DNA of 64,000 nt from Arsenophonus sp. NC-WZS1-MAG3 (GCA_052174535.1 JBQMRQ010000100.1:6506-70505); one strand, 5' to 3'; shown: positions 4,319 to 64,000, numbered from the stretch's first letter. The notes: generated by a model not told the origin, from the sequence alone. Numbers and translations are program-made.

Positions 4319-6781
4319 GGCTATATTGCAAAGGTTGTTAGTAAAAATCTCTTAATACTGCAAGAAGAATTTTCGCTACAGCGATTCCCATAAAATAAAC
4401 AGTTATTATAGATTAAAGAGATATTTTCTCGCTCTCTGCCAACATAAAGCTGCATTTAATTAGTGTTTAGGTCGGTGAATAATCTATTATATTATCTAGA
4501 TTCTCATATATTTAAAACTTATTTCACTTTATCATGCTCATATTATCACAGTGAAGATGTTATCCGTTCTTGCATTCATTAGTGTTACAGCATATCGTTT
4601 TAAAATTCACGATTATAAGAAAACATTTAATAATCTTACTGGAAGTTCTCTGGTGAAATTAATCACAAGGATAAATGGTTTAGTTATTTCCAATGTATAT
4701 TGAATAGATTGACTTTACAGGGAGAGAGTCATCATAGCGAAAGAAAGAGATATTAATTTAAAATCAGCATTTAAATAGCAGAACTGCTTCCTTATTTCAT
4801 CGGTAATACCCAATAAATCCCTAACTGATATTATTGAAGTCAATAAAATATTTTCTCTGAATCCTTTAAATGGAGGCATTATATTTCACATGGAAAAGTG
4901 AAAATACGGGAAGGGAAATAAAAAGAAGGAATTGCGATTTTAATAGGAAAAAATCGACAGGAGTTATTGTAATCGATGAGATCTTAAAAAGATTAATACA
5001 GAATGTATTAGGCGTTTTCTTGAGCTTATCATAAATAAGAGTCCATTCTTTACTCAGATAGTACCTCTAAAATAGTATGAAATTTTGCTAGTTAATATGA
5101 AATTAATTAGCATCGCCTAATAAAGTTGGTAACCAGATAGTTATTGGTAAAATGAATTCTAGATTCAAACTATGAATAGTTATATCAGTAAACTAAAAGA
5201 ATGGTGAGTTATGATAATTTCTGGTATATGGAGCTTTGGAGATGATGACGTGTATCCTGCCTAATTAATTTTATAGTTGATTCCAATCATATTGATATGA
5301 TATCAAATATTGATATGATAAGATATGAAGTTACCCCCATAGATTTCACGAGATTAGATATTACCTATAATCCTTTGTATTAACTTATCTGTATCCTAAT
5401 ACGGTAGCTCTGGATAGCCACTTGTTGCTTAGATAGAATCGAATCCATGATGCAACCAAGATGCTGAATACTAATTTTATCAACGGAACATCACATGCCA
5501 TCGTTTATAACAATTATTTGCTATAGCATATTATAACAGATCAGTATTAGCAATATTGAGATTAAAGTGCCTAATATTACAGGGATCACAACGGCAACGG
5601 AATATCCTTTAACAGCTTGTTGCTATCGTTTAACCTAAAATAGGTAAAAGTAATGAAGAGTTACTACTATTGCCTATATATGCGACAAGGCATATTTATC
5701 GATAATTTCGAACATACTGAGATATTTCTCGGTGAGAAATACATAATCATTCTCGCTAGAGAAACATCAGAAGATTAAAATAGCAATGACTTTAAAATAA
5801 AAGTAATAGGGTTCCTGCGTGATTTAAGCAATACACGATACCTACTATACTTTTATTTTTTGAGAGATGGCATATATCTAGCACTATCAAGCAAGATAGT
5901 GCCCTCTTTTTTCTGCTGGTCATTATTAGCGGCCTTACATGAATGTAAGGAAATTCATTGCAATCGAAGATGTTTATCAAGAATCAGTAGCGAACTTTAA
6001 CATAACTTTTCAATGACTGATGAGCGCATTGCTTAAGCATATTTTCAGGATTTCTAAGGAAGACTCTGCCATTAGTTTTAAACACAATATCAAAGAGATT
6101 CCTGGACATCTAGCATTAATGCTATTGGGTACTATAAAACAGCTAATGTGACGCCTTCATTCCTAAAGGAATCTAATCGAAAGTTTAATGGTGAGCTATG
6201 GAGAGGTCTGCCTAACAAGAAAGGTGCGCTATACTGTTGATAAAGTTTTTGATGTTTTCTTAGTAAAGTTTTCAGTGTACTTTTCAGCGATGAAAAGTTG
6301 AAGAAACACCGAAAAGAACGCTGACATTCTACGACTTCCTGTTAGTACACTGATGTCAGTAAAAACGACAAATCCGATTGAATTGGTTTTTGCGATAGTG
6401 AATAAGACTATAAAGGCGATACGTAAAAAAGTGTAGTTAGAAGAAAACAGCCCTTTATGATATTTAAGTTATCCGCCATCTGTTCAAAAACTAGAACCAG
6501 AAAAAGAAATTTCGATCTATGATCATACTATTAAACAGCGTCAAATCTAAAGATGACTAATAGATTCATAAGGTTCTAGCTCCAGATGTGGAAGTAGCCT
6601 GATCATCATACACCAGATTTACTAATAACTCAAGGATAGCTAAGTAGCTTCCATGGTCTAGGGTCTTTTATTTATTGAATTATCTGATCTAGAGAAGATT
6701 TTTAAAACTAGAATAATTAAAAATAGAGAGGTGGCTACAATTTGCTCTGCGAGCAAAGCAGCAACCTTTGCTAATATAAAT
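4319..6781 (+). mobile_element. IS1595-family relic (copy 1), interrupted by IS256 at 5206-6631
   Basis: Left IR ggctatattgcaaag at 4319 and right IR ctttgctaatata at ~6766-6781. Body is colinear with copies at 31557, 57354 and 62561 (caaactatgaatagttatatcag = QTVNSYIS). Net length after removing the IS256 and one TSD is 1028 bp. Confidence 0.85.
5206..6631 (+). mobile_element. IS256-family relic (copy 2), nested in IS1595
   Basis: IRs gagttatgataatttctggtatatgg / catacaccagatttactaataactc. Relic motifs IEIKVP..RD..GNGISFNS (~5560-5610) and TTNPIE (acgacaaatccgattgaa, ~6365). Flanks aagaatggt / aaggatagc. Confidence 0.9.
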
Positions 6782-6873
6782 TTAAAATAAGTATTTTACT
6801 TGCAATATAGTATGTTTATTAATTGATAATTAAAAATAGAAATAACAATAATTAATTGGAGGTCTGTAGTATT

Positions 6874-7632
6874 ATGATAACCTTAGAAATTTGTTGCTAT
6901 GGAGCTGAATGCGCTCTAATTGCACAAAAATTTGGCGCAGATCGTATTGAACTTTGTTCTAGTTCAGCTGAAGGTGGATTAACGCCTAGTTATGGTTGTT
7001 TAAAGCAAGCTATAGATACATTAAATATTTCCGTTCATCCAATTGTACGTCCAAGAGGAGGTGATTTTTATTACAGTGATAGTGAATTTGAAACCATTAA
7101 ACATGATATTAAATTTATCAGACAGTTAGGTTTTCTTGGTGTAGTATATGGCATATTAAATCGAGATGGGCACATTGATATACCGCGCATGCGTATTTTA
7201 AAGGCATTATCTGGTGATATGGCCGTTACGTTTCATCGTGCTTTTGATATGTGCATTACCCCAAAACAGGCCTATACACAGCTGACAGAGCTAGGTATTG
7301 CACGTATATTAACTTCAGGGCAGAAGCAGAATGCAGAATTAGGTTTACCGTTATTAAAAGAATTAAATGTATTATCTAAAAAAATTCCAAATGGTCCCAT
7401 AATTATGGCAGGTGGTGGGGTAAAATTATCAAATATCCAGAAATTTATTGATGCAGGTTTACCGGAAGTACATTCATCTGCTGGAAAAATAATACCATCG
7501 ACTATGAACTACCGCAAAGCAGGAATAACGATGATCTCCAATATGGAGATGGATGAATCTACCCATTATTGCGTAGATGGTAATGTTGTGAAAGCTATAA
7601 AAAATTTATTAGCTATTGCCAATAATGACTAA
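6874..7632 (+). CDS. cutC: CutC family protein
   Basis: LEICC...GADRIELCS...GGLTPSYG...VRPRGGDF...TFHRAFD...RILTSGQ motifs. ATG at 6874 after a GGAGG RBS preferred over the track start at 6856. Confidence 0.95.
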
Positions 7633-7677
7633 TAATAACTTTAGAGTAAAATGGGATGGTATTGGATATTGTTCTGT

Positions 7678-8652: not shown

Positions 8653-8654
8653 AC

Positions 8655-9444: not shown

Positions 9445-9474
9445 ATTCTAACAGATTTTATCCTTATCTGTCAC
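9445..9474 (-). promoter_or_regulatory. Candidate sigma70 promoter for cmoAB (-35 GTGACA / 18 bp / TGn-TAGAAT)
   Basis: Minus strand reads gtgaca gataaggataaaatctgt tagaat, 40 bp upstream of the cmoA ATG. The -35 hexamer is the last 6 bp of the IS481 relic. Confidence 0.45.
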
Positions 9475-11961
9475 TTCTCTAGAACAGTAGTATAGTCTTA
9501 TTTTTTAAATAATTTATTTTTAACTTTGAACTAATCTTTCATAGATTGCAATAGAATTTTACTATCTAATGCTGATTAGAGTTAATTTCTGATTGTATAA
9601 ACAATCATATTAATACAGGGTCATCTGCAAGCTCTTAAGCAGAATTAAAATGATGTCTTTGAATCCCATCTTTCATGGCTCATTAAATTGCTAGGCCATA
9701 CTATTTGTTTAAAATACATAGGTAGGATAAATCTCTGTTCTATATAAATCTCTACACATAAACAATTGAATTCATACTTTCCAGTAGTTGAATATTTTAA
9801 TAGATCAAAAAGGCGATCTGTAAATTTTTTTTTATTATCTGTAAATACCCAATAGATAATATCTATTTGGGATATACTCGATTAAAATCACGTAATTAAG
9901 CGTCGAGCATTAGCTGCGGTCCTTGATCTTGTAAAAGCAAATAAACCCATTGAATAATGTGATCTATATTTATAAAAATATAACGTTATAAAATTTCGTC
10001 TTCCATTTATGGAAGACATTTAAGATTAAGTATAAATAATCATGCTCGTAGCTTTTAAACGCTTTATAGTTTTCGACTTCGGGTTTTTGCTTCGCTTCAT
10101 TTCAAGTAAATTCTTCGTATAAGCCTGCATAAACAATAATCCAGGCCAGATAGGAAATACCTTTTGAGTTCAGAAAATTTGCGTACAACGCTGCCAGCAG
10201 ATCAGCGAACAAGAAATATTTTTTGAAAGAAAAACGACTGCAGCTTATCTAAGCAGATAACAGCGTTATCAGAAAATGTGGAATAGAATGTTAACTGTGA
10301 TCATCAACATCATCTCGTTTTTACCATTTAATAAACAGGTAAGTTTAATATACTAAAACGCTTAACTAAAGTAAATACAGCTTCTTTTCTAGCCTCTGAA
10401 TAGTAGTTCTAATTTTAGATGTTGTAGTTACTGATAATGAAGTCTCATCATCATATTTTACTCTAAACTATATCCATAAGTAGCCATCATCTTGCCATGA
10501 ACATGGCAGTGCGATGAGTTAACCAGACAATCTAGTATATCACAAATCGGAATACTACACTCTAATGCTTCGTAAATTTATTCTCCATTCTTAAGTAAAA
10601 TGTTGTTTACCAGGATGGTTAGTAGATTAACCCTTTAAGGCGATTCCAGCTTTTCTGAATAGACGAGGAGCACCTTAAATACCATTGAAGAGTTGTTTTC
10701 TTAAGCTACACTGCTTCGCGCGTTACCTTCATAGGCTTTCACCTATCACAAAACTAGATTTAATTTGATTTGTCGTTTTTATTGACATCATAATGAACTA
10801 ACGGGAAGCCATAGAATGCCCAGCCATTCTTTTAACTCTTTTTTTCAGCTTCTTCATCGCTGTAGGATACGTTAAAACCTTACTAATAAAGCATAAAAAG
10901 TTTTATTAGCAGCGTTACGACCCCCCCTCTACTAACCTGAGCTCCTAAGAAGAATTTAGCTTTAACTTTTAGTTGAATGCCTTTTAAGATTAAAACCAGA
11001 ACATCAGCTATACGTAACCAAAAACATTGATGCTGCGCGCTCATAAATATTTTTCCATTGTATTAAAAAAACTAAAAGCATCATCTTCGTAGCAAGCATG
11101 AAGATATAGTTAAACCCCGTTTACAGGGAATTAGAATTTAAGTGCAGTTCGCTTCTGACTATCGATAACCATTTTTGAGCACAATTGGTCTCCTTACATC
11201 CATGGATAGTAAGGTTGATTTAACTAGCAGATAAAGGAATTAGCTTATCTGACAGGACCAATATATATCCATAGATCAAGAAATAAATATAGCGCGTATC
11301 GCTTTAATCACGTAACCGCCATTGTCTATGCTCTTTAAGGCATTACTGCTTCAGTCTCCTGATGGCACTTGAGAAGATATCATATGATTTTCATCGAAAA
11401 ATCTTTACAGGGGTTCATGAAAATCACCGGTAGAATTCCTTACAGTGAGGTCATTGCAGTTACGGGTAGTAAAATCTTTCAACGCTTTTTAGATGTTTTA
11501 AATGCTTTAAATAAAAGGTAGCAACGAGTTGCTGACCATCTTATTCCATTGTGGCTAAGAGATTTCCCCCTTGACTTTAAGCACTTTAATCTTAATATCG
11601 CCAATAGTAGTTTACTATAGTTCATTACGGTAAATAATTGTTACCGATAACGGTATTTAATACTCCTTCATAAAGGCAACGCCACAGCATATTGTACTAG
11701 CATGGCTTCTAATTCCATCTCAACAGCAGTGCCTATCAACTGGCTTTCAGCATTACGGATAAATTCATGCAATGGATCACAGGTAATATCTAGTTTTGCT
11801 AATATCTATAAGGTAGATTTTATGGCATATCATCTCTATATTATTGAAATCATTCAATAAATTAATCAACAAAATATACGCTAGCATATCCAAAACTACA
11901 TATACCAGAAATGGATATAACTCCTGTACGACGAAGGTCTATATAATACCGGGATCAAACA
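9469..11961 (-). mobile_element. IS481-family relic (copy 1), interrupted by IS256 at 10516-11923
   Basis: TGT...ACA ends (tgtcac at 9469; ccgggatcaaaca ending 11961). Minus strand gives YNQKL.QSALDSK...MKD*FK and a MIIAL-like start. Colinear with the copy at 53237. Net length about 1076 bp. Confidence 0.85.
10516..11923 (-). mobile_element. IS256-family relic (copy 3), nested in IS481
   Basis: IRs gagttaaccagacaatctag / catataccagaaatggatataactc. Flanks cagtgcgat / ctgtacgac (6/9 identical, degenerate TSD). Confidence 0.9.
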
Positions 11962-12037
11962 GTTAGTAAGTAAAATAAATCTTATTAATACGGCAAAAGA
12001 ATATAAGTATAACTATGTTAATAAAATTAATTTTGAC

Positions 12038-18350: not shown

Positions 18351-18431
18351 GATTTTAATTTTCCTTAAAAATATTAATTTAATGAAAAATCATTTTTGCG
18401 TTTTTAACATCTATAAAATAACTATATAAAG

Positions 18432-19831
18432 GAATCATTAGAAAATCTAGTGTATGCTGATCAGGGCTATAGTCTGCTTTTATGCTTTATAAATCTGCTC
18501 TCTATCCTAAAATTGGATCTTTTACTAGCAGAGTCGCAGCAGGTTAAATTCTCTTAGTCGGTTCCAGCTTTTCTGAGTAGATAGAAGCAACTTAAATAGC
18601 ATTAAAGGTTATTTTTCGAATCACAGTGCTTCTAAATTCGCCTTCATAGCCTCAACTCTCATAAAAACTAATTCAATCCAAATTTGTTGTTTTTATTGAT
18701 GTCCAGTGCGCTAACGGGAAGGCATGGAATGCTAGGATGTTCTTCTCGCTCTTTATCCAACTTCTTTATTGCTGCATGAATACTTATCCCGATAACTTTT
18801 TTAACAAAAACATCAAGGGCTTTATTAATGATATTGCTGCTCTCTGTTAGCCATGACCTTTTCCACCGCAACTCAGCCTTAACTTTTTTGCCTGTATCTC
18901 CCCTCTTGGAAGTAAAGAAAACAGATTACCTATTTTGTATAGGTGTGTAATTGCGTTAATACTGCATATTCTGGAATATCTTTCCATTAGATTCCTAAAA
19001 ATCAAGAGTAGATCTCTCTTCCTATAGGAAGTTTGTAGATGGAGTTAAACCACGTGCTCGCGCCAATCCAGAGGTTAGCTCAGTGCACTTCTGACTCTTG
19101 ATAAGCATCTTCAACTGTAATGAGCTCCTTACGTTTATGTGCAATAACGTCGATAATAAGAAGCAGCTAAAAGCAATTAGTTTGCCTGACAGGACGATAA
19201 ATATGTCACCAGAACAGAAATAAACGTAGCGTCGTATATCATTTAAATCATACAGCTAGCCATTGCTTATGTTCTTCAGGCATCAATATTTCACAGTCTA
19301 CTGATAGTGTGCTGATAAAGAAAACCATGTGCTTTCATCGAAAAGCTCTATGGCTTTCGTTAAATCACCGGTAAATAATACCTTATTTCTTATAGGTGCA
19401 GGCATGGTAGAAATTCTTCGATCTTTTTATACGCTTCAGATAAGGCCGTAGCAATGAGTTATTGAAGTATATTTCGTTATCGCTGTAACTCTTCTGATTT
19501 TAAGATCTTTAAATATAAATATCGTGAATAGCAGTCTATAATATTGGTTCGCGGTGGTAAATAACTGCTATACCGTAAGATAAGAAGGCATTCAGTATCT
19601 TCTAACAATATAACATTGAGACCACCTCAACAATAGTGCTATTAGCTACCTAGAGGATAATTACGGATGAGTTAATGCAAAGGATAAAAGTAATATCTGA
19701 TTTTGGCAGATATCTGTAGGATAGATTTTTCATGAGATCTCATTTCTATATTGTTGAAATAATTCACAAAATCAATCGCAGAAGACACGGTAGAATTTTA
19801 AAAACTCCATACACTAGAATAAATCTCTCTC
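18432..19831 (-). mobile_element. IS256-family relic (copy 4)
   Basis: Ends gaatcattagaaaatctagtgtatg / ctccatacactagaataaatctctctc. Body colinear with the other copies. Sits at the creA/mrdB junction. Confidence 0.85.
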
Positions 19832-23790: not shown

Positions 23791-23809
23791 ATTTTAAATT
23801 AAATAAAAA

Positions 23810-25203: not shown

Positions 25204-25453
25204 AATAAGAGTATCAAGTTATATTTCAATCAGTTAAAACTTCTGTTAAAAGAAATAAGCATAAGATAATTTATCTTTAGAACTAATTTTAGTAAAACTA
25301 ATTGAACAATTATAATTAATTTCAGAATGATTTATCGAAAATTATGCTTTATTCATCACTAATCATCTAAAAATCGCTAAATAGATACCCAATCACCTTA
25401 TATACTCATAATAGTTTATGTATGTTTTATAAATTTTTATATTTGTTAATTAG

Positions 25454-34760: not shown

Positions 34761-34781
34761 ACTTAAATATAACTCATTTTA

Positions 34782-41645: not shown

Positions 41646-41913
41646 GTAATATGCTTGCAAAGATTGTTGCTTTGTTCTCATAGAGATTTATAAGCACGTC
41701 TATATTTCAATTGTTGTGGTTTTAAATAATCTATTTTAGGCTAGATAATTCGGTAAATAAAATAACCCTATACTATGGATCAAGCTTATGTATCCTTTTA
41801 ATTAGCTAATATAACTATTTACATTTTGAATGTGGAATTTATTTCCAATAACTCTCTGATTATTAAGGCTTATTATATGATAATAACTAATTTCATGCTT
41901 GTTAAGAAAGGGT
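41646..41913 (-). mobile_element. IS1595-family 3' fragment (copy 3), cut by IS256
   Basis: Aligns by eye with 57354-57620 (tcctttaattagctaatataactatttacattttgaatgtgg = rc of HIQNVNSYIS.LKG). Ends at the IS256 left IR. Confidence 0.8.
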
Positions 41914-43265: not shown

Positions 43266-43293
43266 TCCGCTTTCTTCTGATCTTAGAAAGGTT

Positions 43294-44699
43294 GAATTAT
43301 GCTCATTTTCTGTGTAAGGTTTTCAAATATACTGACGTATCTTACTAATTAGTTTCGTAAATAATTTTCTCAATAGAGAGATGATCTTCCATGAAAAGTC
43401 TACCATACAAATGTCACGAAATAAAATTACTTTATTCCCCTTATATTAACTCATATGTAATGTCCACTAGAAAATGGATAGCACCGTTATTCAGGCGAAA
43501 TTCAAGTCATGCTGGAATAACATGCTGAACTCCCTTATCGGAAGGGGCCCCGGCCTGCTACACCAATGTTTATAACAATTATTTACCATAGCGAACCCCC
43601 ATATATAATAGTATTAGTGATGTTGAGATTACAATGCTTAAGACCAGAGGGGGTCGCAGTGGCAACAGAATATACTTCAACAGCTTCTTGCTGCCGCTTA
43701 TCTAAAGCGTGCAAAAGCACCGAAAAGTTATTATCATGCCCTGTATATGCGCAGATATTATCTTACCGATTATTTTACAAAGCCATGATGGCGTGCTTAT
43801 CCCTGAAAAGTACATAATCTCTTTAGTAGTACCTATTAACAGACCGAAACAGTAATGCCCTGAAGAGAATTCACAATATGGGTACCTTACGTGATTTAGC
43901 GATACGCCTAACGTTTATTTCTTAGCTGAAAACATATGTTATTCTGTAATACAAGCTAATTACCTCCTTCTGCTAATTATATTGGCAGTGCTGCGCATGG
44001 ATGCAAGGAGGCTTCCTTGCGGTAGAAGATGATTATTGAGAATCAGAATCAACCTAGAGAGGTAACTTTCAATGACTAATAAGCACGGATCTTAATCGTA
44101 TTTCTCAAATTTGCTACGGGAGACGGTGTTTGGTTTTGTGGAATGCAATAGTAAAGATATTCCCGAGCATTTAATGCCAACACTGTTGGATACATAAAAT
44201 AGCTAATGGTACCGCCTTCACTCCCTAAAAGCATTCAATATAAAGTTAAAATATGAAGTGAGCTGCAAAAAATTTAGCTAGCAGAAAGAGAGTCACGATT
44301 CCTATAATAAAGCCTTTAATGCTTTGTTGGTAAGATTTTCAGGATATCATTCAGGGATGAAGATCCTAGAAAAGAGCGAGAAGACCTGTTGACATTCCTA
44401 TGACTTCCGTAAATACACTGGGAATCAATAAGAATAAAAAATTTGATTGAATCAACTTCTTCAGCAGTGATTCTATAGCTGATGCGTGAAGCGTAAAGCA
44501 ACTGTGGCTAAAGAAAATAACCATTTCAATGATATTTAACTTGCTTTCGTTTACTAAAAATAGCTGGAACCGAGCTAAAGAATTTAATTTGCTGACACTG
44601 GTGGTAAACAAGATCCAATTTAAGGATGGATAATAGATTCATGAAGGATCAGCATGGAATGTAGTCTGACCATCATAGATCAGATTTATCATTCTTCTC
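43294..44699 (+). mobile_element. IS256-family relic (copy 10), tandem with copy 9
   Basis: Left IR gaattatgctcattttctgtgtaagg, FATGDG (tttgctacgggagacggt, ~44110), right IR catagatcagatttatcattcttctc. Confidence 0.85.
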
Positions 44700-49224: not shown

Positions 49225-51270
49225 TTTATTACACCAAGATCCTCTTATTTGCATATATAGGAAATAACTGATTCAAGTGATTCCAGGCTTCTTAATACCA
49301 TACTATCTCCTATTTTAACTACTGCATCGCGTAAATAATTAGCATAGAGATAGATAATTTCGAGATCAACAAACTTTCCGATCATATTTTGCGTATCTTC
49401 GAAATTTACTATTAAATTATTTCGGCACAGCCGAAAAATTTCCGTAATATTTTTATAAAAAAGTCTTTCTTAACTAAGATACATTGAATAACTACTTAAC
49501 GAGTTATACTCATTATATGGTATATGGAGTTTTAAAAAAAATAGCGTATCCTGCTGATTAATTTTGCGGATGATTTCAACATCAGAAAAGATGATATGCT
49601 ATGAAAAGCTTACTCTCTATAGTATCCGCGAAACCAGATATTACCCTGATCTCATTGCATGAACCTATTTGTAATGCTACCAGGAGCTTATAGCATCGCT
49701 GTTAAAGGTGAGTTCTAAGGCAATGTTGCAAATAAACCTGCTCAACGCGCTTTGTTGACGTGAGGGTCTAATGCCGTCGTCCGTAACAATTATTTGCCAC
49801 CGTAAATCTACAAGACTGATATTGTAAATATTGAGATTAATGGCCTAAGATTAAAATGGGATAGCAACGGTAATAGAATATCCTTTAACAGCTCATTGTT
49901 ATCGCCTTATCTAAATCGTGCAAGAAGAAGGTAAGAGTTGCTACTATAACTTTACCTGCTAAGAATGCATCTTTCCAACGATGATTTTTATGAAGCTCTA
50001 TAAGCACTTATTAGTAAGAAAGCAAATGATCTTCCTGCTAGCTGGCATCAAGAGATTAAAACAGTAATGACTTGAAGAGAATTGACAATGCCTAGCTACG
50101 TAATTTACGTGATACACCCTCTACGTTTATTTTGGTACTGATAGTATATGCAATGGCCTATTTAGGTATACTGATCGTCTTTGCCTGCTTGATTATATCC
50201 AACGAGAAACCTACTGTATATGGGATATTAAGGAGCTAGATTTCGGTAGAAGATGCTTATCGAGAGTCAGAAGCGAACTAACTAAACTTCTCAATAACTT
50301 GTAAGCGCGCATGGTTTAACTGTATCTCCCAGGGCTTGGTACGGAGGACGCAGTACTTAGTTTTTTAGAATGTAATGGAAAAGATATTTCCGAATATGCA
50401 ACAACGCTGCTAGTACATAAAATAGCTAATGTACTAGGTTTCACTTCCTAAAAGCATGAAGCACTGAAAGTTAAGGGTAACCTGCTAGAGTCTGGTTAGC
50501 AGATAGTCGTAATGCCATTAATAAAGCCTAATATTTTTGGTAAAATTTTAGCAAAAAACTATACTAATTCTATGAAGAAGCTGAAGAGATATTGAAAATA
50601 ATAGCTAGCATTCTATGATTTTCCATCAGTGCATTGGACGTCAATAAGAATGACGAATCCAATTGAATTAACTTTTTTTTGCAAAAATAAGACTATGAAT
50701 CGAAGTGTAAAAATTGTGGTTTAAGAAAAAAATCCTTTTAATAGTATTTTAGCTACTTCTGCATGCTCATAAGGGCTGTAACTAATTAAAGGGAAATTTT
50801 GACCTGTTGATCATTCTGGTAAAGAATATCTAATTTAAAGATGGAGAACAGATTTAGAAAATTTCAGAATTGAAATATGCTTATCTTTAACTTCACATCA
50901 TCTCTAGTAGATGATGTGAAGTTCGTAGATCAAAAAATAATACTCACACTGCATGGCCTAGCGGACCTAACACGTTGATAAATGAATTACTTTCTTATGA
51001 ATCGACACAACCACCTCACCCCAATACCAATAATAATATTAATTAATATCTTTTTATCTTTTTTAATGTCCTAATTAATAAAATACCTTTTTACGTTTTT
51101 CACGAATTTAGCAGATATCTATAAGCAGTAGAATATCAAAATCTTAAGCAATCTCTATTAATTAATATACATAGCCTTGTTGAGCAAAGATAGCCTTTTT
51201 AATAAATCATATTCATTCATCTGGCGACAGAGCCCACCCATAGATTTTAATCTATAGTTTTATTTCTAAA
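49225..51270 (-). pseudogene. miaB: tRNA-2-methylthio-N6-dimethylallyladenosine synthase pseudogene, split by IS256
   Basis: N-terminal part RQMNEYD...IGV...SIIFD.RT.HHL (51270-50905). C-terminal part VNFEDTQNMIGKFVDLEI...ESVI...DLGV (49500-49225). The central radical-SAM core is missing. Confidence 0.88.
49501..50905 (+). mobile_element. IS256-family relic (copy 11), inside miaB
   Basis: Left IR gagttatactcattatatggtatatggag at 49501. RITTNPIE-like (~50645). Right IR truncated into a palindrome. Confidence 0.87.
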
Positions 51271-52646: not shown

Positions 52647-53236
52647 CATAAAATTAGTTATGATATTTTTTCTATTGTGTTTGAAAACCCTGTTCTTCAG
52701 ATTGAAAATCTATAAAAATTAATTAATTTATTCAATTGATTAAAAAAATCTATTTTTATTATTTTTATTTGTTAATAAATAAAGTTTTATCGTTTTTATT
52801 ATTTAATAGTCATGGGGGCCACTTGGCATATGTTTTTCATATTTCTATCATGTTACTGTGATATCAATAGCTATATTTGATATTGCATACTTTACACACT
52901 TCAAGTTAAAATTAGATCGCTACTATTTTTTAACGGCGTTATTAATTACTTATCTAAATTTACCTTTTTTATTATTTTCATATTGCTTAATATTATTTAT
53001 TTCACTTCCAGCTCAGCTGCTTAGCTGTAAAATAATTTACTAACAAATATAGGATTATAATAATTAATAATAAAAAATAATTATAATTATCTTGAAAAGA
53101 AAGTTATATTTTAAATAAAAATTAGCAAATAATTTTAATCTAAATTTCTATATTTTCAGTTATCCCTCCCAAAAACTCTCAACTTTTAAAAATTTTTTTT
53201 AGTTATCTTTTACTAAAATGCTAAATATGCTAGGGA

Positions 53237-54302
53237 TTACACATCCCAGTAAATAATTTTTTTAAAAAATTTAAGTTTAGTTTTAAATCAATCTTTCATA
53301 GACCGCAATGAAGTTTACTACCTAATACTACTTAGGTAATTCCTGATTGTACAGATAAATATATTGATATTCAATCATCTCAAACTCTTCATTAGAATTA
53401 AAATGATAGCTTTGCAGCCCATCTTTTAATACGTCCATTAAATTGTTCAACCATATTATTTATGAAGATAACTCGCCAAGATAAGTTGGTCTTCTATAAT
53501 CAAGCTCTGTACACAAATACTTGAATTCCTATTTTCTGGTGGCTGAACCTTTTGCAGAGAAAACAGCGATCTATAAATTCTTTTCCATTATCTGTAAGTA
53601 CCTAATTGAATAGGCATAAGAGCCATGCTTAGTTAAGCTCACATAAGAAAGGTCGTGCATTGAACGCAGTCTTTATTCTTCTAAAGATGAATAAAAACCG
53701 ATTTAATAGACAGGAGCCGATCTATACCTATGAAAAGATAATATCATGAAGTTTCATTTTGTATTCTTGCAAAAGATATTTACATCTACGTGCAGGATAA
53801 CCTAGCTCGTAGATTTTAAACGCTTTATGCTTTTTGGCTTTGGTGGTTTTCCTGTCTTTATTTCACGCAAATTCCTTACTTATGCCTGTATAAACAGTGA
53901 TTCAGGCAAGATTTAGATACTAAGAGATTTAAGAATTTGTGTACAATTGCTAGCAGATAGGCTAGAGGAAGAAAATATTTTTACAGGAAAACGACTATGG
54001 CTTATTGAACTGCTGCTAGAGTTCTTCGTCAACAAACAATGAGGAATATGGCTATAATCATCAATATCATCTCGTATTATGCTATATAATAGTAAGTTCA
54101 GAGATTCTCTAATACTTAACTAAAGTAAATCCCAGGCTCTTTTCTTAACTTGAAAAGCAGCTTTGATTTTAGATTCTATAATTTCTTAACGATGGAGGCT
54201 AATCATCATAATATTTATCTGAACTATATTCTTCATAGTTCTATTGCCAATGAATAGAACTGTGCAATGATGATCATTTATATAATGATCCGAGATCAAA
54301 GA
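53237..54302 (-). mobile_element. IS481-family relic (copy 2)
   Basis: Minus strand reads VLTDNGKEF (53576-53601) and NMVEQFNGRI (~53430-53460). IR-like ends ttacacatcccagt / tataatgatccgagatcaaaga. 1066 bp. Confidence 0.9.
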
Positions 54303-54398
54303 GCTACTAAAATCACTATTAATAAAAAATAGTTTTTACATATAACTTATTTTTTAATCCCACTCATGATTTTTAATTTATATGATTATTGAAATCAT

Positions 54399-54738: not shown

Positions 54739-55591
54739 CTGATTTTTATGATTTTTACAGAAAAGTATCTATTTTTTAGATTGTTGATTATTCTATCGAT
54801 AAATCAACAAAAAATAATATCGTTTTATAAAATATATAATAACTTTATATGTTAAATATTAAAGCTAATTAATTTAAGATATTCCTGATAATAAAACGAG
54901 TGATGCTTTTTATTTCAATGATATTGTTAATTTCTATTAACAATAGAAAGCATATTATTCGTTTAATCAAATAAATTATTAATAATAATCAAGTAATTTT
55001 CTTATTGAGCGAAAGTGAAATTAGCGCATAATATTATCTATACTGTTACATAACAGCGATTAATAATAGCTATTATCTATTAACCATATTTTATATAAAT
55101 ATAAATATTAATATCGACAATAAATTTTTTATACTTTAGCTAGTAAAAAGGATATATTAATCTATTACAATGCTATTATAATCGAATTAAATAGTACAAA
55201 AGCTCACCATTTAACATAGGACGTTTAATTAATAGAAAGTAGCAATAACTGAATTATGTCCTAACTGTAAAGTAATAATTGATAAATCATTACAGAAATT
55301 TTTTAACACTTTAGTTAGTTTTGATATAGTTTTGCAGGTGTGGCAAAAAACTTTTTCTATTACTATAATTTCTCTCCGCGATAACTACTTTTACGGATTA
55401 AATAGGTTAATGATAATGCCAATTGCACTACTAATACATGGACTGCGTATTTAATCACTTCAATGCTAATGATTATTTTTATTTACTATCTGGAAATTAG
55501 CTTTAATAGAATAATAATTTAATTTTAATTGCCTTGGGTAATTTTGTTCAAATTGTTGCCTAATTCTATTTTCAATAGTGCTATAGCTGTA

Positions 55592-56997
55592 GAGTTATGC
55601 TAATTTCTAGTGAATGAAATTTCAGAGATGATAAGAGTAACTCTACTGATTAATTTCATAGATTATTTTAATATCAAAGATATAACATCTCATAAAACAA
55701 TCTACCATATAGATATCTGCAAATCAGATATTATCCATGATTCATTACATGAACTACATGAACTCATCTATGAATAATGCCAGGGAGCTCTGATAACACT
55801 GTTGTTAAAGATGAGCAGAAGCCATAACTGTGACAAATATGAAAGACTGCCTTGTCGATGAGCACCAAGCTATTGCCAATAATAGTTATTTGCTACAAGC
55901 ATCTATAACAGATGGGTATTGGCGATGTTGAGATTAAAGTGCCTAAGATTAGGAACTTGTAGTAGCAACGAAATATGCTTTAACAGCTCCTTGCTTCCGT
56001 TTTATCTGAAGCGTGCAAAATATCAAAGATTTGTTCTTATGACTCTTTTTACAGATACACCAGTGATCTTCATGAATTCATAAGGGAAAGCTTCTTAGTG
56101 AGAAGCGCATGATCTCTCTCTGCTAGTACTATTAGCAAACTGAAATAGTAATGGCTTGAAGAGAATTAGGAATGTATTACTTATGTGATTTAGCGATACC
56201 CCTAACGTTTATTTCTTTATTGAAGGCATATATCATTCTGATAATCAAACTGATCATATTTGCCTGCTTAGTTATATTGTCGGAACTGTGCATAGACGTA
56301 ATGAGATTCGTTGTGGTTAAAAATGGTTATTAAGAGTCAGAAGCATACACTGGGGCGAACTTCTGGATGACCGCGCGAGCGGCGTGGCTTAAGAGTATCT
56401 CCTAGATTTGCTACGGGATAAGGTGTGATTAGTTTTGAGTGCAATGGTAAAAATATTCCCAGATATTTAGTACCAATCTCCTGTTGGGTATACAAAATAG
56501 CTGATGTGATGCATACCTTCTCCAAAGGTATGTAAGCGAAAATTAATGGTGATTCGTAGGAAGGAATGCCTAGCTAGAGAGGGTTGCATGCCGATCATAA
56601 CGATTATGATGTTTATTAACAAGATTTTTAGTTAATCTTACTCTATTGCAGCGATGAAAAAGCTAGAGAAAGAACGAGAGGAACTCTGTGGCATTCTACG
56701 ACTTCCTGTCAGTCAGTTATACTGGACACTAATTAAGAACGACGAATCCCAGATTAAATCGCCTTTTGTGATAGTGAAGCTACGAAGCTGATGCGAGAAG
56801 AAGTGTTTTTTAAAAAAAACCCTTTCAATGGTATTTAAGTTGCTATTTCCTGTTAAAAAGCTAGAGCTGCGCTAAAAGGATTTGATCTGCTGACTTTTTG
56901 TACTAATAACGTTCAATTTAAGGATGAAAAATAGATTTTCTGAAACATAAGAGTGGAGTGGAACTTGATCATCATGCATCAAATTTGCTAATAATTC
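55592..56997 (+). mobile_element. IS256-family relic (copy 12), inside nagC
   Basis: IRs gagttatgctaatttctag / catcaaatttgctaataattc. Flanks atagctgta / ttgactata. 1406 bp. Confidence 0.9.
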
Positions 56998-57353
56998 TTG
57001 ACTATAATTGTTTCGAGACAACTAAATTTACCGTAATGATGACTTTATTTTAATAAATCTATTTGTAGATGACCGATTTCACTCAGGTTATGACAGTTAT
57101 TCAATAAAATTTTACCGCCCATAATCATACCTAGCTTCAGCATCGCCGCCCACGATGAATGCGTACAAAAATTAAATTGACGAAATTTTATGTAATACCA
57201 AAATAATGCTCTGCCAACGTAAAACAACAAAATTTATGACTGATAAAAGAATTTAGAGAACTATGGTGTAAGCAGCGCAGTTATGCTGCTTTAGGATTTT
57301 CCTGATCTGAGTACTGTCTTATATCCTGCAATATACTAATTTTTATAATTTAG

Positions 57354-58379
57354 GGCTACCTTAGCAAAGGTTGTTACTTTGTTCGCAGAGCAATTTGTAA
57401 CTACGTGTTTATATTTTAATTGTTATAGTTTTTAACAATTTCTGCAGGCCAGCTATAATTTAGTAAATAAAAACCCCTCCTATAGCATGAAATCTACTCA
57501 GTCATCCTTTTAATTAGCTGATATAACTGTTCACAGTTTGAATGTGCAATTCCTTATCACAACTCTCTGATTATCAACCTTATTAGGCGATGCTGAGTAA
57601 TTTTATGCTTGCTAGCAAAGCTTTGTATCATTTACCTCTATCTGAAAAATAACTCTTTATCAATAATCGGATCAAGAAAAAAAGGATAACATGCTCTTTA
57701 TTAAACTCTTCAAGAATCTTATTGCTCACATAACCCTCGTAATCTTGAGCGATTAAGAGCACAATTCATTCTTTTCTTTTCTTTGTCCTTTTCCGAATTT
57801 TTTATCTTTCTTATCTGGAATATAACCCTTCCTTTTAAAAAATTCATGAAAAATGTTTCGTCAACTTCAACAACACCAATTAGTGCATTTATGTTATCTA
57901 TCGCTACTACTAAAACAAGAAACAGTGATATCTTCCATCTAAACCCTATTTTTAAATCAATATTTGTTTTTCTTACTTCCGTAAATTTAAGCTATTAAAC
58001 TACATTGAAGATAACTAAAGCATTTATCCTTCTGATGTAGTTTCGCCAAAAAACTTTCAGTATGATTGTTAAATGTTTTCCTGTAATAGGGAATTTTGCA
58101 ATGATATCGCTGCAATCCTAATAAGTGTCCTCAGCAGATAAACATGTTAACTCTGACATTATAGATGGGATAGAGTGGAATGAGTTGCTTTAATGTATGA
58201 ATCAATATCATCCGATAGATTGTTATCTAGGCAATTAATGAGATCCAGCTTTATGTTAGTAGAAAGCAAGAAAAATCTCTTTATCTGTATGACTGTTTAT
58301 TTTTATAGCAACTTTCTGTAGCTAAAAATTCTTTATGCTGTATAAAGAATTTATATAAATAACTTTTAACAATATAGCT
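57354..58379 (-). mobile_element. IS1595-family relic (copy 4), inside nagC
   Basis: IRs ggctaccttagcaaag / cttttaacaatatagct. Minus strand reads ALIGVVEVDETFF (57849-57890), LHIQTVNSYIS and a zinc-ribbon-like GLQRYHCK. 1026 bp. Confidence 0.9.
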
Positions 58380-58604
58380 AGAATTAACATATCGCAGTGT
58401 ATAAATATACTCTACTCATGAATATTTACGAAGCAGTATATCTGTTGCAGGGCTCATGCGTAACGTGCTAGGTTCTAGATTATCTAATATAGATAAAATA
58501 ATGAAATAGAAATCAAACTTGTAATTAGGAGGTTGATGTTATTAAGAAAAATTTTAATGGCTGAAATTAAATGATTTTTTATTTCTTATTGAACAATTTC
58601 TTAT

Positions 58605-59992
58605 AAGTTATTAGAAAATCTGATGCATGTTTGTTAGACTATGCTATACTCTGATGCTTCATAAATCTATTATCCATCCTTAAATTGGACCCTGTTTACC
58701 ATGAAGTTAGCAGATCAAATCCTCGTAGCCTGTCTAGATATTCTGAAAAAACTGTAGCAACTCAATACTGTATTTGAAAGTATTGATTTCTCGAAACACA
58801 GTTACTTTAGCAGATCAGCTTCATAGGTTCGCTCTTCCAAAAGTTGATTCAATTAAATTCGTTGCCCTTATTGACGCCTAGTGCTTTGACAAGACGTCAT
58901 AAAATGCCAGCATCCTTCTTCGCTCTTTCTTCAATTTCCTAATCCCTAGTAGGAAAGGGATACTTATACTAAAAATATTGAAAAACCTTGCTAACAAAAT
59001 ATCAATGGATTTATTAGCGGCATTACGGCTATCTGCTGGCCAAACTTCCGACAGTTCACCCTTACTTTCGGTTGCATGTCTTTGGTGAATGAAGCAGAAT
59101 ATCAGTTATTTATACACACAATAACATTACTACTGCGTGTCCTGTAATATCCTTGCCATTGCCATTCTAAAATCAAGAACACTACCTCTGTAGGAAGTAT
59201 GGGAGGTGCGGTTAAGTTCTCTGCACTTGCAGACCACCTAGAAGTTATGACAGTTTGCTTCTGACTTTTAATAATCCTTTTCACACGCAATGAGCTCATT
59301 ATGAGCATGCGCAATAACATTAATAATAACTAGTAAATAAAGTCATCAGCTTTCTTGACAGAACGGCATATTACTTTCGCCAAAATAAATGTAATACGTA
59401 TTGCTAAATCATGCAGGTAGCACTAATGTCTATACTCTTCAAGCCATTACTATTTAGTCTGCTGATGGTATGGCAGAGAGGGATCATGAGTTTCTCACTG
59501 AGAAACTCCCTCATGAACTCATGAGGATAACTGATATATCCGTAGAACAGGAATAGTGGAACTCTTCGATTCCCTTCACGTTTTATATAAGGTGGCGCAA
59601 TGAGCTTATAAAAGTATATTCCGTTGCCACTACGGATGCACCTTAATCTTAAGCAGTTTAATCTTAACACTATTAATAGGAATTTGTATACTTCGCTGAA
59701 GAAAATAATCGTTACAGATGGAGGTTGAGTCTACCAATTAAAGAGCGTTTCAGCATTTTGCTGGAGTTATGACTTTGATCTCTGCCTTAACGACGGTGTT
59801 ATCTATCAGCTTCCTAGTAGCATTACGAATTAGTTCATACAAGGGTTAAGGTAATATCTGGTTTCACAAATACCTCTGTGGTAGACTTTTATGGCATATT
59901 ATTTCTCTGTTGTTAAGATTATCTATAAAAACAATCAGAATAATACGCCATACCATCTCCGAATTTCTATACACTAGAAATAAACATAACTA
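58605..59992 (-). mobile_element. IS256-family relic (copy 13)
   Basis: Ends aagttattagaaaatctgatgcatg / ctatacactagaaataaacataact. 1388 bp. Ends 6 bp from the nagA stop codon. Confidence 0.87.
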
Positions 59993-59998
59993 GATTTA

Positions 59999-62066: not shown

Positions 62067-62186
62067 TATTTTACCTCACTTAATTTTATTTTATATCAAC
62101 TATATTTTAATAATTTTATATCATTCTACTATTATTAATTGTTATTAATTAAGTTTTATAAAAACTTGAAATTGCCTATTTGTTAA

Positions 62187-62330
62187 TGTCTTATTATAGA
62201 AGGAATATATAGTTTTTAAAATAATTTAGGTTTAGTTTTGAACTAATCTTTTATAGACTGTAGACTGTAGACTACAATAGAATTTTACTACACTAATTGG
62301 GGTAATTGTTTAATTTCGATTATTATATAG
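62187..62330 (-). mobile_element. IS481-family right-end fragment
   Basis: ttttgaactaatcttttatagac...aatagaattttactac aligns with 9525-9570 and 53280-53325. Confidence 0.7.
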
Positions 62331-62365
62331 ACCCTTTCGTCCCACAGTAATATTCATAACAAGGA

Positions 62366-64000
62366 TGTCTACTGAGAAATTATAGTTAAAGATAATATTA
62401 TGATAATGAAACTTCATCGTCAGGCAAATATAATACCTAAAATTATATCCATTCTTCAGGTTTTAAGCCAGAAAAAACCTGCGTTTTTTAGCTAAAATGT
62501 TATGGAATTCTCTTGACTTACCGTTACTAAAGAATAAAATCAAGATGATATTGATGATTTGGCTACGTTGGTAAAGGTTGTTTTGCTTTTCTCAGGGAGC
62601 AATTATAGCTATGTTATATATTAATTCTTATTGTTTTAAACAATCTTCTCGAGGCAGATAATTCTGTATTTAAATAAATCTACACCTTAGATCTACTAAG
62701 AAATCTTTTTAATCGGCTGAGATAATTATCCATATTTTAAATGTGAAATTACTTATCAATAATTTTCTGATTATTTTATCTTTATTTAGATAAAAATGAT
62801 TAATTTCATACTATTTTGGCAAAGTTTCGTATCATTACCTCTATCTATCTCTATCTGAGATAATGATGAACTCTTTAATCCATAATCAGATCAAGAAAAG
62901 GAATAACATACTCTAGATTAAACTCTTCAAGAATCTCATTGCTTACATAACTATCTTAATTTTTTGCAATTAAAAGCGTAATTCGTTTTTTTCTTTATTC
63001 TTTTCTTTATTTTGTGTTATTTAGCTTTATAATGTTTGAATATAACGCTTCCCTTATAAACGCTTCCCTTATAAAGGATTCAGGGAAAATGTTTCATTGA
63101 TTTCAAGAATACCCTTGCTACATTTATATTGGCTATCACCGCTAAAACAAAAATGATGATGCAAAATATAAACGCTGTTTTCAAATTAATACCTGTTTAT
63201 TTTTCTGACTCTTGTAAAGTCAATTTTATTCAACATATATCCATAGATAACTAAATAATTTAGCCTTGTGATGTAGTTTTGCAAGAGGACTTTTAGTAAA
63301 ATTATTAAATGTTTTCTACAATCGGAGATTTTTTAATGATATTGCTGTAAGCACTATGGATCTCCCTAATAGATAACATGTTCACTTTAATAAAGTGACA
63401 GGATAAAGTGGAATAGGTTGTTTCAATGTATGAATTGATATTATTCGATAGATTATTATCTAAGCAACTAATAAGATGCAAATTTATATTGGTAGAGAGT
63501 AAGAAAAAGTATCTTTGATCTATATGACTAATGACTGCTTGCTTTTTATGACAATTTCTGTAGAAAAAATCCTTCATATAATATAAAGGATATTATCTAC
63601 CAATAACTGTTACAAACATAGCCTGATAATCACACTCCATATTTCCCATCATTTTCTGGACCCTATCGCCAGCAGCTTAGGGAGTATACTTATTTTCTTG
63701 CAAAAACAGTTTTCTTTCTTTTATTTTGATCTGTTACAGTCCTATACTAATTTCTGAATCTAACATTGTATCTTGATTTGATATGGATCGCTGTTTACGC
63801 AAGCGCTCATACGGGTAATTTATGTGAAATAAGATAGAAAATCCCTAAAGCTGAAGCATAAAACATTTAAAACTAGGAGTCTGGTTATTTATACATAGAT
63901 ATACATAGATATGAAATTTCTTCCGCAAATGTTAAATAAAGCTTCACGACGTTATCTTTTTGTAGGTATAGATCGCACACTTGATAAGTTTTATGCATCT
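62366..64000 (+). mobile_element. IS481-family relic (copy 3), interrupted by IS1595, runs off the window end
   Basis: MIMKLHRQA..IPKI (62400), resuming at 63624 with D.HTP, DRCLR, KHKTFK and IDMKFLPQM..KASRRYLFVGIDR (63900-63980). Confidence 0.88.
62561..63623 (-). mobile_element. IS1595-family relic (copy 5), nested in IS481
   Basis: IRs ggctacgttggtaaag / gttacaaacatagcc. Flanks tgatgatt(t) / tgataatc. Colinear with 57354-58379. Confidence 0.88.

What the first reader, a model, noticed from the sequence alone, without database searches (positions are those of the whole stretch)
4319..64000. Nested insertions give a consistent invasion order: IS91 and IS481, then IS1595, then IS256
Seven nestings or truncations are readable: IS256 in IS1595 (5206 and 41914), IS256 in IS481 (10516), IS256 truncating IS91 (~33511), IS256 in IS256 (35715), IS1595 in IS91 (31557), and IS1595 in IS481 (62561). 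No reverse nesting was seen. This is a stratigraphic record of successive IS waves during the transition to symbiosis, with IS256 the last and largest.
Basis: partly seen in the sequence, partly recalled or inferred. Interest (0 to 1): 0.75.

Follow-up and report, generated by a model that had tools for sequence, protein, structure and literature searches.

The report
Nested dead insertion sequences, order partly right
A cicada-associated Arsenophonus genome is 36% fossil insertion sequences whose nesting does record an order (IS481-like, then IS1595, then IS256), but IS91 was not an early wave: it started early, jumped into all the others and was the last to stop.

Summary
The window belongs to a 2.34 Mb, 31.5% GC Arsenophonus genome. 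About 847 kb of it (36%) is about 1,050 dead fragments of four IS families: IS256, IS1595, IS481-like and IS91.

Six of the seven reported junctions are real and informative. The seventh, at ~33,511, is a later ~760 bp deletion. Two sister genomes keep both elements complete and ~220 bp apart.

Genome-wide, IS481-like, then IS1595, then IS256 is strongly supported (junction counts 52:4, 46:0, 62:0). The claim of no reverse nesting fails. IS91 sits inside IS256 (26 junctions, 3 clean two-sided nests), inside IS1595 (24) and inside IS481 (21). It does so at its canonical GTTC/CTTG target and without target duplication.

Comparison with a sister genome that split just after the burst supports the mean age ranking IS481 ≥ IS91 > IS1595 > IS256, with only the IS481 excess significant. 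It also shows IS91 has the most insertions made after the split.

IS91 therefore appears first in and last out. The whole episode took only a few percent (roughly 3-7%) of the time elapsed since.

This is a large example of a known phenomenon.

The parts
2581..4066 (-). IS256-family relic, complete ends (model 74-1473)
   Evidence: nhmmer; orthologous copy in G001
4315..6788 (-). IS1595 relic (4315-5209 and 6632-6788) split at model ~183-196 by a complete IS256(+) at 5184-6648; 9 bp target duplication
   Evidence: same nest in G001
9450..11975 (+). IS481-like relic (9450-10518, tail 11924-11975) split at model ~1059 by a complete IS256(-) at 10515-11933
18422..19823 (-). IS256 relic, solo
23799..25213 (-). 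IS256 relic, solo; clean empty site in A. nasoniae and in the tick symbiont
30775..33509 (+). IS91 relic (30775-31559 and 32587-33509), split at model ~812-820 by a complete IS1595(-) at 31533-32611 with an 8 bp duplication; its last ~300 bp are missing
   Evidence: nest shared with G001 and G017
33509..34715 (+). IS256 relic lacking its first ~205 bp; the junction with IS91 at 33509 is a ~760 bp lineage-specific deletion, not a nesting
   Evidence: G001 and G017 carry a complete IS91 end (model to 2001), a ~220-250 bp spacer and a complete IS256
35456..36998 (.). IS256(+) fragment 35456-35715 (model 74-316) cut by the intact 3' end of IS256(-) 35705-36998 (internal deletion at model 248-362)
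   Evidence: same structure in G001 and G017
41644..44691 (+). IS1595 fragment 41644-41912 (model 43-311) cut by IS256 41889-43219, then a second IS256 at 43284-44691; 4.4 kb present between them in G001 is deleted here
49488..50884 (+). IS256 relic, solo; absent at this site in A. nasoniae
53220..54326 (+). IS481-like relic, complete and uninterrupted
55579..57008 (+). IS256 relic, solo
57238..58387 (+).
58595..59998 (-). IS256 relic, solo
62291..64000 (-). IS481-like relic (62291-62558 and 63624-64000+) split at the genome-wide hot spot (model 842-850, TGATGATC) by a complete IS1595(+) at 62549-63667

Best explanation
The window is part of a fossil field of insertion sequences in a cicada-associated Arsenophonus. 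Four families multiplied in one short episode in the common ancestor of at least three sister lineages. All then died, and the copies have since decayed in place by about 0.3 substitutions per site.

Each nest records that the element with intact ends transposed into an element already present. IS256 and IS1595 did this by cut-or-copy DDE transposition, leaving 9 bp and 8 bp duplications. IS91 did it by rolling-circle insertion next to GTTC/CTTG, with no duplication.

Read genome-wide, the record gives overlapping rather than successive activity:
- The IS481-like family came first and had stopped before the others began to land in it.
- IS1595 followed. It has strong hot spots in IS481 (TGATGATC) and in IS91.
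- IS256 made the last and largest sharp burst, essentially at the moment the G017 lineage split off.
- IS91 appears to have begun early (this rests on small divergence differences and on IS1595 and IS256 copies inside IS91). It ran through the whole episode and made the most insertions after the split.

Shown here: the family identities, the nests and their asymmetry, the IS91 target use, the orthology of copies across genomes, and the post-split insertions.

Inferred: that asymmetry reflects time rather than target choice for IS481, and that the burst accompanied host restriction.
For: Scale and star phylogeny:
- 847 kb is masked by the four models.
- After merging fragments there are 411/199/194/144 elements for IS256/IS1595/IS481/IS91.
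- The family trees are star-like, with terminal branches of 0.27-0.33 substitutions per site and only ~6% of tree length internal.

Junction matrix, young (intact terminus) into old (internal break):
- IS256 into IS256/IS1595/IS481/IS91: 33/52/46/27
- IS1595 into the same: 4/0/62/23
- IS481 into the same: 0/0/2/2
- IS91 into the same: 26/24/21/3
- The whole sister genome G017 gives nearly the same matrix.

Strict two-sided nests:
- IS256 in IS1595 5, in IS481 4, in IS91 3, in IS256 2
- IS1595 in IS481 13, in IS91 3
- IS91 in IS256 3, in IS1595 5, in IS481 3
- IS481 in nothing

IS256 insertion points are spread along their hosts. Their density per kb of host falls in the order IS481 0.41 > IS1595 0.34 > IS91 0.16 > IS256 0.08.

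IS91 junctions lie at GTTC/CTTG/GAAC/CAAG in 68-72% of cases, against 14% for IS256 junctions (Fisher p=5e-14). IS91 nests show no duplication.

Independent clocks:
- Divergence from consensus at G/C sites is IS256 .404, IS1595 .408, IS481 .424, IS91 .428.
- Excess identity of positional orthologues (G000 vs G017) over paralogues is IS256 -0.0006±0.0010, IS1595 +0.0019±0.0016, IS481 +0.0077±0.0023, IS91 +0.0047±0.0030.

Post-split insertions, where the host element is continuous in the other genome:
- IS91 in IS256 at G000 C19:63145-66315 and at G017 C6:47782-50873
- IS91 at G000 C62:15666-17694
- IS1595 in IS481 at G000 C45:10053
- IS256 in IS256 at G000 C22

Outgroups (A. nasoniae and a tick symbiont) have empty sites.
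Against: - IS1595 and IS91 have strong hot spots, so their counts cannot be normalised by target length. Part of the asymmetry could therefore reflect target choice.
- The target preference of the IS481-like family was not determined.
- Many one-sided junctions differ between G000 and G017 because of later deletions. Some 'intact end next to internal break' junctions were thus made by deletion, not insertion.
- The divergence differences between families are small (about 5%) and confounded by base composition. At A/T sites IS1595 is less diverged than IS256.
- The early start of IS91 rests on a 1.6 sigma excess plus the G/C-site rank.
- Post-split events are few (about 8) and were classified by eye from hit tables.
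- The genomes are draft assemblies built from metagenomes.
Confidence: 0.72

Rival explanations
1. Strict succession. IS91 and IS481 invaded and stopped, then IS1595, then IS256, with no overlap.
For: All window nests fit this reading. Mean-age ranks from G/C-site divergence and from orthologue excess identity follow the same order: IS481, IS91 > IS1595 > IS256.
Against: - There are 26 IS91-into-IS256, 24 IS91-into-IS1595 and 21 IS91-into-IS481 junctions, including 11 strict two-sided nests. They sit at canonical IS91 targets.
- IS256-into-IS91 and IS91-into-IS256 are symmetric at 27:26.
- IS91 has the most insertions after the split.
- IS1595 occurs inside IS256 at A position ~583.
- One IS1595 insertion is younger than a shared IS256 in the same IS481 copy.
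Confidence: 0.04
2. The asymmetry reflects target-site choice, not time. Each transposase lands only in certain sequences, so who sits in whom says little about order.
For: - IS1595 hits one 8 bp site in IS481 in about 28 of about 87 copies, and one site in IS91.
- IS91 uses GTTC/CTTG.
- The IS481 target is unknown.
Against: - IS256 insertions are spread along all hosts in both orientations, yet they show the graded density IS481 > IS1595 > IS91 > IS256.
- IS256, at 46% GC, offers as many or more IS91 target motifs than the other families (background 0.21).
- Clocks that do not use nesting give the same rank for IS481 (oldest) and IS256 (youngest).
- No IS481 insertion is lineage-specific.
Confidence: 0.1
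3. Counts are inflated because composite units multiplied as wholes. For example, an IS481 already carrying IS1595, or an IS1595 carrying IS91, could have transposed as a unit. A few nesting events would then be counted many times, and IS481 would have been active after IS1595.
For: Nests are repeated at identical positions: IS1595 at IS481 842-850, and IS91 at IS1595 450-464, always in one orientation.
Against: - IS1595 sits in the IS481 hot spot in both orientations in roughly equal numbers.
- The family trees are star-like with no clade of more than 4 tips.
- The single orientation of IS91 in IS1595 is expected from its oriented tetranucleotide target.
- One hot-spot IS1595 insertion is demonstrably a separate, post-split event.
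Confidence: 0.08
4. Most junctions are products of deletion and homologous recombination between relics rather than of insertion, so they carry no direction.
For: - The window junction at 33509 is such a deletion.
- Many junctions differ between G000 and G017 by deletions.
- Chimeric flanks such as IS256-583 | IS1595 | IS481-845 show recombination between copies.
Against: - Deletions at end-to-end neighbours would be symmetric between families. They cannot produce 52:4, 46:0 or 62:0.
- Strict two-sided nests with target duplications of the right length give the same picture.
Confidence: 0.06

Closest known systems
IS fossil record in Wolbachia (Cerveau et al. 2011, PMC3205602)
   Same: An intracellular symbiont whose genome keeps many non-functional IS copies. 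These were read as a record of successive periods of transposition.
   Different: In Wolbachia, IS cover up to 11% of the genome (wRi), many groups are still active, and IS are exchanged between strains. Here 36% of the genome is IS and no copy is less than 17% diverged from its consensus. The burst was a single short episode shared by three species. Nesting is dense enough (about 350 directional junctions) to order the families.
Chronology of eukaryotic transposons from nested insertions (interruption matrices, as used for maize retrotransposons and mammalian repeats; from my own knowledge)
   Same: The same logic applies: the interrupting element is younger than the interrupted one, and an antisymmetric matrix orders the families.
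   Different: It is applied here to bacterial IS, where relics are normally deleted quickly. One family (IS91) breaks the linear order, and hot-spot targeting has to be allowed for.
IS proliferation in recently host-restricted symbionts and pathogens (e.g. Sodalis pierantonius/SOPE, Shigella, Orientia; from my own knowledge)
   Same: Massive expansion of a few IS families in a lineage that became host-restricted. Free-living or less reduced relatives lack the insertions.
   Different: Those expansions are recent, with near-identical copies. Here the copies are about 25% diverged from consensus yet keep nearly full unit length. The stage after the burst has been preserved rather than erased.
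IS91 family rolling-circle elements (target GAAC/CAAG, no duplication; from my own knowledge of the IS91 literature)
   Same: It has a Y2 transposase with a zinc-binding N-terminus. It inserts next to GTTC/CTTG and their complements. Nests show no target duplication.
   Different: It is dead, about 1.96 kb long, and present in about 140 fragments on a symbiont chromosome. It is often found inside other IS.

Membership tests
IS256 family | Mutator-type DDE transposase (Pfam Transposase_mut) | tested here: met
   Consensus translation gives PF00872 at E=1.1e-23, 84 bits. The consensus aligns end to end with annotated IS256-family elements.
IS256 family | About 1.3-1.5 kb with terminal inverted repeats and an 8-9 bp target duplication | tested here: met
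   The consensus is 1382 bp with ends GAGTTAT...TCTGGTGTATG on both sides. A 9 bp duplication is seen at window 5198-5206/6632-6640. Host overlap in nests is 9-14 bp.
IS256 family | Intact transposase reading frame in at least one copy | tested here: not met
   No ORF of 100 aa or more lies inside any window copy. The minimum divergence from consensus is 0.21. All copies are relics.
IS1595 family | DDE_Tnp_IS1595 domain | tested here: met
   PF12762 at 35.5 bits, cut-off 27.
IS1595 family | About 1 kb, inverted repeats, 8 bp duplication | tested here: met
   The consensus is 1029 bp with a 17 bp perfect inverted repeat GGCTATGTTAGCAAAGG. 8 bp duplications are seen at window 31557 and 62561.
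IS481 family | rve-type DDE integrase core | tested here: met
   rve_3 at 43.2 bits (cut-off 26.5). rve at 26.7 bits, below its cut-off of 32.6.
IS481 family | Single un-frameshifted ORF in a ~1 kb element, as opposed to the two-ORF IS3 family; characteristic target duplication | tested here: inconclusive
   The 1062 bp length fits IS481 rather than IS3. The consensus still holds frame breaks, and the duplication and target were not determined.
IS91 family | Y2 (HUH-type) transposase with an N-terminal zinc-binding domain | tested here: met
   PF04986 at 73.5 bits (cut-off 20.9). PF14319 at 23.5 bits, just under its cut-off of 26.3.
IS91 family | Insertion next to GTTC/CTTG (GAAC/CAAG) without target duplication | tested here: met
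   68-72% of IS91 junctions have the motif within ±8 bp of the break in the host consensus, against 14% for IS256 junctions (p=5e-14). Host coordinates are contiguous across nests, with d between -5 and +5.
Linear nesting chronology (strictly successive waves) | Antisymmetric interruption matrix for every pair of families | tested here: not met
   It is met for IS481/IS1595/IS256 (62:0, 46:0, 52:4). It is not met for IS91 against IS256 (26:27) or against IS1595 (24:23).

The most novel reading that the evidence does not exclude
The four-family invasion was one very brief event, lasting about 3% or less of the time elapsed since. It ended at the very moment the symbiont lineage split between cicada hosts: IS256 copies show zero shared decay before the split. 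After that, both transposition and large-scale deletion almost ceased. About 850 kb of dead IS has therefore been carried, unit length nearly intact, through ~0.3 substitutions per site in three species. If so, this clade is a natural 'frozen' bacterial genome. It would be a calibrated system for measuring neutral mutation spectra and deletion rates in symbionts, and the burst may be causally tied to host capture or lineage splitting.
Probability: 0.3. Interest if true: 0.75.

Novelty: new member of a known kind. Interest (0 to 1): 0.55.

Why it matters
Bacterial IS relics are normally erased quickly, so the order and tempo of IS invasions during host restriction are usually inferred rather than read. 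Here about 1,000 fragments and about 350 directional junctions, replicated in a sister genome that split right after the burst, allow three things to be read directly.
- The families were not simple successive waves.
- The rolling-circle IS91 outlasted the cut-and-paste families.
- The whole episode was very short compared with the long quiet decay that followed.

The relics also give hundreds of independently decaying copies of known ancestral sequence. That makes them a resource for measuring the mutation spectrum and deletion bias of an insect symbiont.

Tried and rejected
- Pfam searches of the raw genome found only a handful of weak transposase hits, because the copies are too decayed. 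Consensus reconstruction was needed.
- My first IS91 model was truncated because the window copy is truncated. It was extended by 278 bp.
- A candidate fifth repeat at window 16550-17050 gave only one nhmmer hit and was dropped.
- A ~1.4 kb repeat on small contigs looked like a possible younger IS or rRNA. It has no Rfam hit and matches a serine hydrolase gene on an A. nasoniae plasmid, so it is not an IS.
- A putative IS481-in-IS256 nest (C48:32851-37973) has 2.7 kb of unrelated DNA around the IS481. It was not counted.
- A first sample of one third of G017 suggested that IS256 never entered IS91 there (0 junctions). The whole genome gave 15, so that was a sampling fluke.
- Automatic 'empty site' calls (31 junctions) were mostly deletion differences when inspected. 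Only about 8 stood.
- Crude identity of positional orthologues between G000 and G017 could not be told from paralogues. The column-wise comparison with 349 pairs was needed.
- Flank logos did not reveal target motifs for IS256, IS1595 or IS481.


Full report
**What the window is**

The window is C100:6506-70505 of a 2.34 Mb, 142-contig, 31.5% GC assembly. A conserved protein places it in Arsenophonus. The nearest records are MAGs EOPcoel-MAG3 (96% aa), NC-TX2-MAG3 and NC-PE1-MAG3. A 2025 paper deposited cicada Arsenophonus genomes under accessions that include these prefixes. It describes Arsenophonus as vertically transmitted in the cicada tribe Platypleurini and does not mention IS (PMC12627099).

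A sensitive self-comparison shows that the stretches between genes match 60-290 other places in the genome at about 70-75% identity.

**Families**

I built four families de novo with nhmmer, seeded from window copies. Their consensus translations hit Pfam as follows.
- Transposase_mut: IS256, 1382 bp.
- DDE_Tnp_IS1595: IS1595, 1029 bp, with a perfect 17 bp inverted repeat.
- rve_3 and rve: IS481-like, about 1062 bp.
- Y2_Tnp and Zn_Tnp_IS91: IS91, about 1.96 kb.

The IS256 consensus aligns end to end with annotated IS256-family elements, and at 80-90% identity with Arsenophonus plasmids.

Together the four models mask 847 kb, or 36% of the genome. No other IS-like repeat family remains after masking.

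All copies are dead. Divergence from consensus is 0.22-0.26, the minimum is 0.17, and the spread between copies is only 0.017-0.022. The trees are star-like, with terminal branches of 0.27-0.33 substitutions per site and about 6% of tree length internal.

**The seven junctions**

Six are real and directional.
- Four are clean two-sided nests, at 5206, 10516, 31557 and 62561. They carry target duplications of the expected length: 9 bp for IS256 and 8 bp for IS1595.
- Two are one-sided, at 35715 and 41914. There an intact terminus abuts an internal break.

The junction at ~33,511 is different because both partners are truncated. The syntenic regions of two sister genomes align with the window straight through the relics. 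In both, the IS91 copy is complete to model position ~2001. A spacer of about 220-250 bp and a complete IS256 follow it. The window junction is therefore a later ~760 bp deletion and says nothing about order. This also removes the idea that coaD is flanked by two halves of one IS256.

One more nest was overlooked: IS1595 in an IS91 fragment at 57346.

**Genome-wide catalogue**

I scored every place where two family hits abut. The partner with an intact terminus was called young, and the partner broken internally was called old.

Junction counts, young family (rows) into old family (columns):

| young \ old | IS256 | IS1595 | IS481 | IS91 |
|---|---|---|---|---|
| IS256 | 33 | 52 | 46 | 27 |
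| IS1595 | 4 | 0 | 62 | 23 |
| IS481 | 0 | 0 | 2 | 2 |
| IS91 | 26 | 24 | 21 | 3 |

Strict two-sided nests give the same picture.
- IS256 lies in IS1595 5 times, in IS481 4, in IS91 3 and in IS256 2.
- IS1595 lies in IS481 13 times and in IS91 3.
- IS91 lies in IS256 3 times, in IS1595 5 and in IS481 3.
- IS481 lies in nothing.

After allowing for element length, the asymmetries are as follows.
- IS256/IS1595 is 52:4 (p=2.5e-15).
- IS256/IS481 is 46:0.
- IS1595/IS481 is 62:0.
- IS91/IS481 is 21:2 (p=3e-8).
- IS256/IS91 is 27:26 (not significant).
- IS91/IS1595 is 24:23 (p=0.02, leaning to IS91 later).

The order IS481-like, then IS1595, then IS256 therefore holds. The statement that IS91 came first and was finished does not.

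**Are the IS91 junctions real insertions?**

Yes, on three grounds.
- IS91 nests show no duplication of host sequence.
- The host consensus carries GTTC, CTTG or their complements within 8 bp of the break in 68-72% of IS91 junctions. The figure is 14% for IS256 junctions, and background is 11-21% (examples).
- This is the classical IS91 target behaviour, as I know it from the IS91 literature.

**Hot spots and other caveats**

- IS256 breakpoints are spread along their hosts in both orientations. IS256 can therefore serve as a rough clock. Its insertion density per kb of host is 0.41 in IS481, 0.34 in IS1595, 0.16 in IS91 and 0.08 in IS256.
- IS1595 is strongly site-specific. About 28 of about 87 IS481 copies carry it at model 842-850 (TGATGATC), in both orientations. 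It also has a site at IS91 ~130-140.
- The star trees and the balanced orientations argue for independent hits rather than amplification of composites. Amplification is not excluded.
- IS1595 also entered IS256 at position ~583 at least once (C31, C45). One of these copies has a chimeric flank (IS256-583 | IS1595 | IS481-845), which shows recombination between copies.

**Sister genomes as an independent clock**

A. nasoniae and a tick symbiont do not, and they show clean empty sites.

Orthologous relics are 78% identical between G000 and G001. Between G000 and G017 they are no more alike than paralogues.

I fetched all 2.30 Mb of G017. Its junction matrix is nearly the same as that of G000.

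Using 349 positional orthologue pairs in 199 syntenic intervals, I measured the excess identity of orthologues over cross-genome paralogues.

| Family | Excess identity | Share of elapsed time before the split |
|---|---|---|
| IS256 | -0.0006±0.0010 | 0 |
| IS1595 | +0.0019±0.0016 | 0.008 |
| IS481 | +0.0077±0.0023 | 0.030 |
| IS91 | +0.0047±0.0030 | 0.018 |

Divergence from consensus at G/C sites ranks the same way, at .404.408.424 and .428.

- Mean ages are therefore IS481 ≥ IS91 > IS1595 > IS256. Only the IS481 excess is significant.
- By the orthologue measure the spread is about 3% of the elapsed time. By G/C-site divergence it is about 7%.
- The G017 lineage split off essentially at the IS256 burst.

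**Insertions made after the split**

Shared junctions are 50 for IS256, 33 for IS1595, 1 for IS481 and 21 for IS91. Candidates with the host element continuous in the other genome are 8+4 for IS256, 3+1 for IS1595, 0 for IS481 and 8+6 for IS91. Inspection showed that most are deletion differences.

Those that stand are listed here.
- IS91 in IS256 at G000 C19:63145-66315, where the G017 copy is uninterrupted.
- Two head-to-head IS91 copies in an IS256 at G017 C6:47782-50873, where the G000 copy is uninterrupted.
- An IS91 at G000 C62:15666-17694.
- Probable IS91 insertions at G000 C60 and C76.
- An IS1595 in the IS481 hot spot at G000 C45. The same IS481 in G017 is continuous, yet it already carries the shared IS256.
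- A probable IS1595 in IS91 at G000 C22.
- One IS256 in IS256 at G000 C22.

IS91 therefore has the most late activity, although it is the smallest family by element count.

**Synthesis**

IS481-like came first and stopped. IS1595 followed. IS256 was the last big, sharp burst. IS91 appears to have begun early and certainly kept going longest.

It is wrong as a model of non-overlapping waves and wrong about the absence of reverse nesting.

The link to host restriction is plausible because the outgroups lack the insertions. It is inferred, not shown.

**Limits**

- The assemblies are drafts built from metagenomes.
- One-sided junctions can be made by deletion.
- Hot spots prevent clean normalisation for IS1595 and IS91.
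- The IS481 target is unknown.
- The dating differences are small and confounded by composition.
- Post-split events are few.

Noticed in passing
genome-wide; window example 35456-36998: IS256 copies nested in IS256 are almost always in opposite orientation: 33 of 33 junctions in G000 and 25 of 26 in G017 (p=2e-10). IS256 in other families is about half and half. Same-orientation nests were probably collapsed by homologous recombination while the copies were still alike.
   Followed up: partly
window 62549-63667; genome-wide at IS481 model 842-850: IS1595 has an extreme hot spot. About 28 of about 87 IS481 copies carry it at the same 8 bp (TGATGATC), in both orientations. A second hot spot lies at IS91 model ~130-140, and a weak one at IS256 ~583.
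   Followed up: partly
window 33509-35715 (around coaD): The 'two permuted halves of one IS256' around coaD are two separate copies. In G001 and G017 the left copy is complete. The window lost ~760 bp spanning the IS91 end, a spacer and the IS256 start.
   Followed up: yes
window ~39830-39891, ~43215 and ~50865: Compared with G001, the window lacks 4.4 kb, 4.4 kb and 0.84 kb at these points. The second gap removed an IS481 fragment, an IS256 and the distal part of the IS1595 whose start is at 41644.
   Followed up: partly
window 30798-44682: This 14 kb block (IS91/IS1595 nest, coaD, recD and more) is absent at this position in A. nasoniae and in the tick symbiont. There the flanks are ~220 bp apart.
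   Followed up: no
G000 C45:21211-23642 and C31:11527-13638: One IS1595 copy has IS256 position 583 on one side and IS481 position 845 on the other. Another has the same IS256 position on both sides but in mirrored orientation. These are signs of homologous recombination and inversion between IS copies after nesting.
   Followed up: partly
G000 C26:69029-71659 vs G017 C69:22251-26771; G000 C68:172810-182702 vs G017 C43: Some 'intact end next to internal break' junctions arose after the split, by deletions that stop at an IS terminus. For example, IS91 is reduced to model 29-144 right up to an IS256 5' end, where G017 keeps the whole IS91. These may be transposase-mediated adjacent deletions.
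   Followed up: no
G000 small contigs C10:4592-5957, C25, C66, C114, C115, C139, C96, C90: About eight copies of a ~1.4 kb repeat, 80-92% alike and without open frames. It matches a serine hydrolase gene on an A. nasoniae plasmid at 75%. It is neither an IS nor rRNA.
   Followed up: partly
G002 (A. nasoniae) C270:850-1055; Arsenophonus plasmids: The reconstructed IS256 consensus matches A. nasoniae at 88% and Arsenophonus plasmids at 80-90%. Less decayed relatives of the invader therefore persist in less reduced members of the genus.
   Followed up: no
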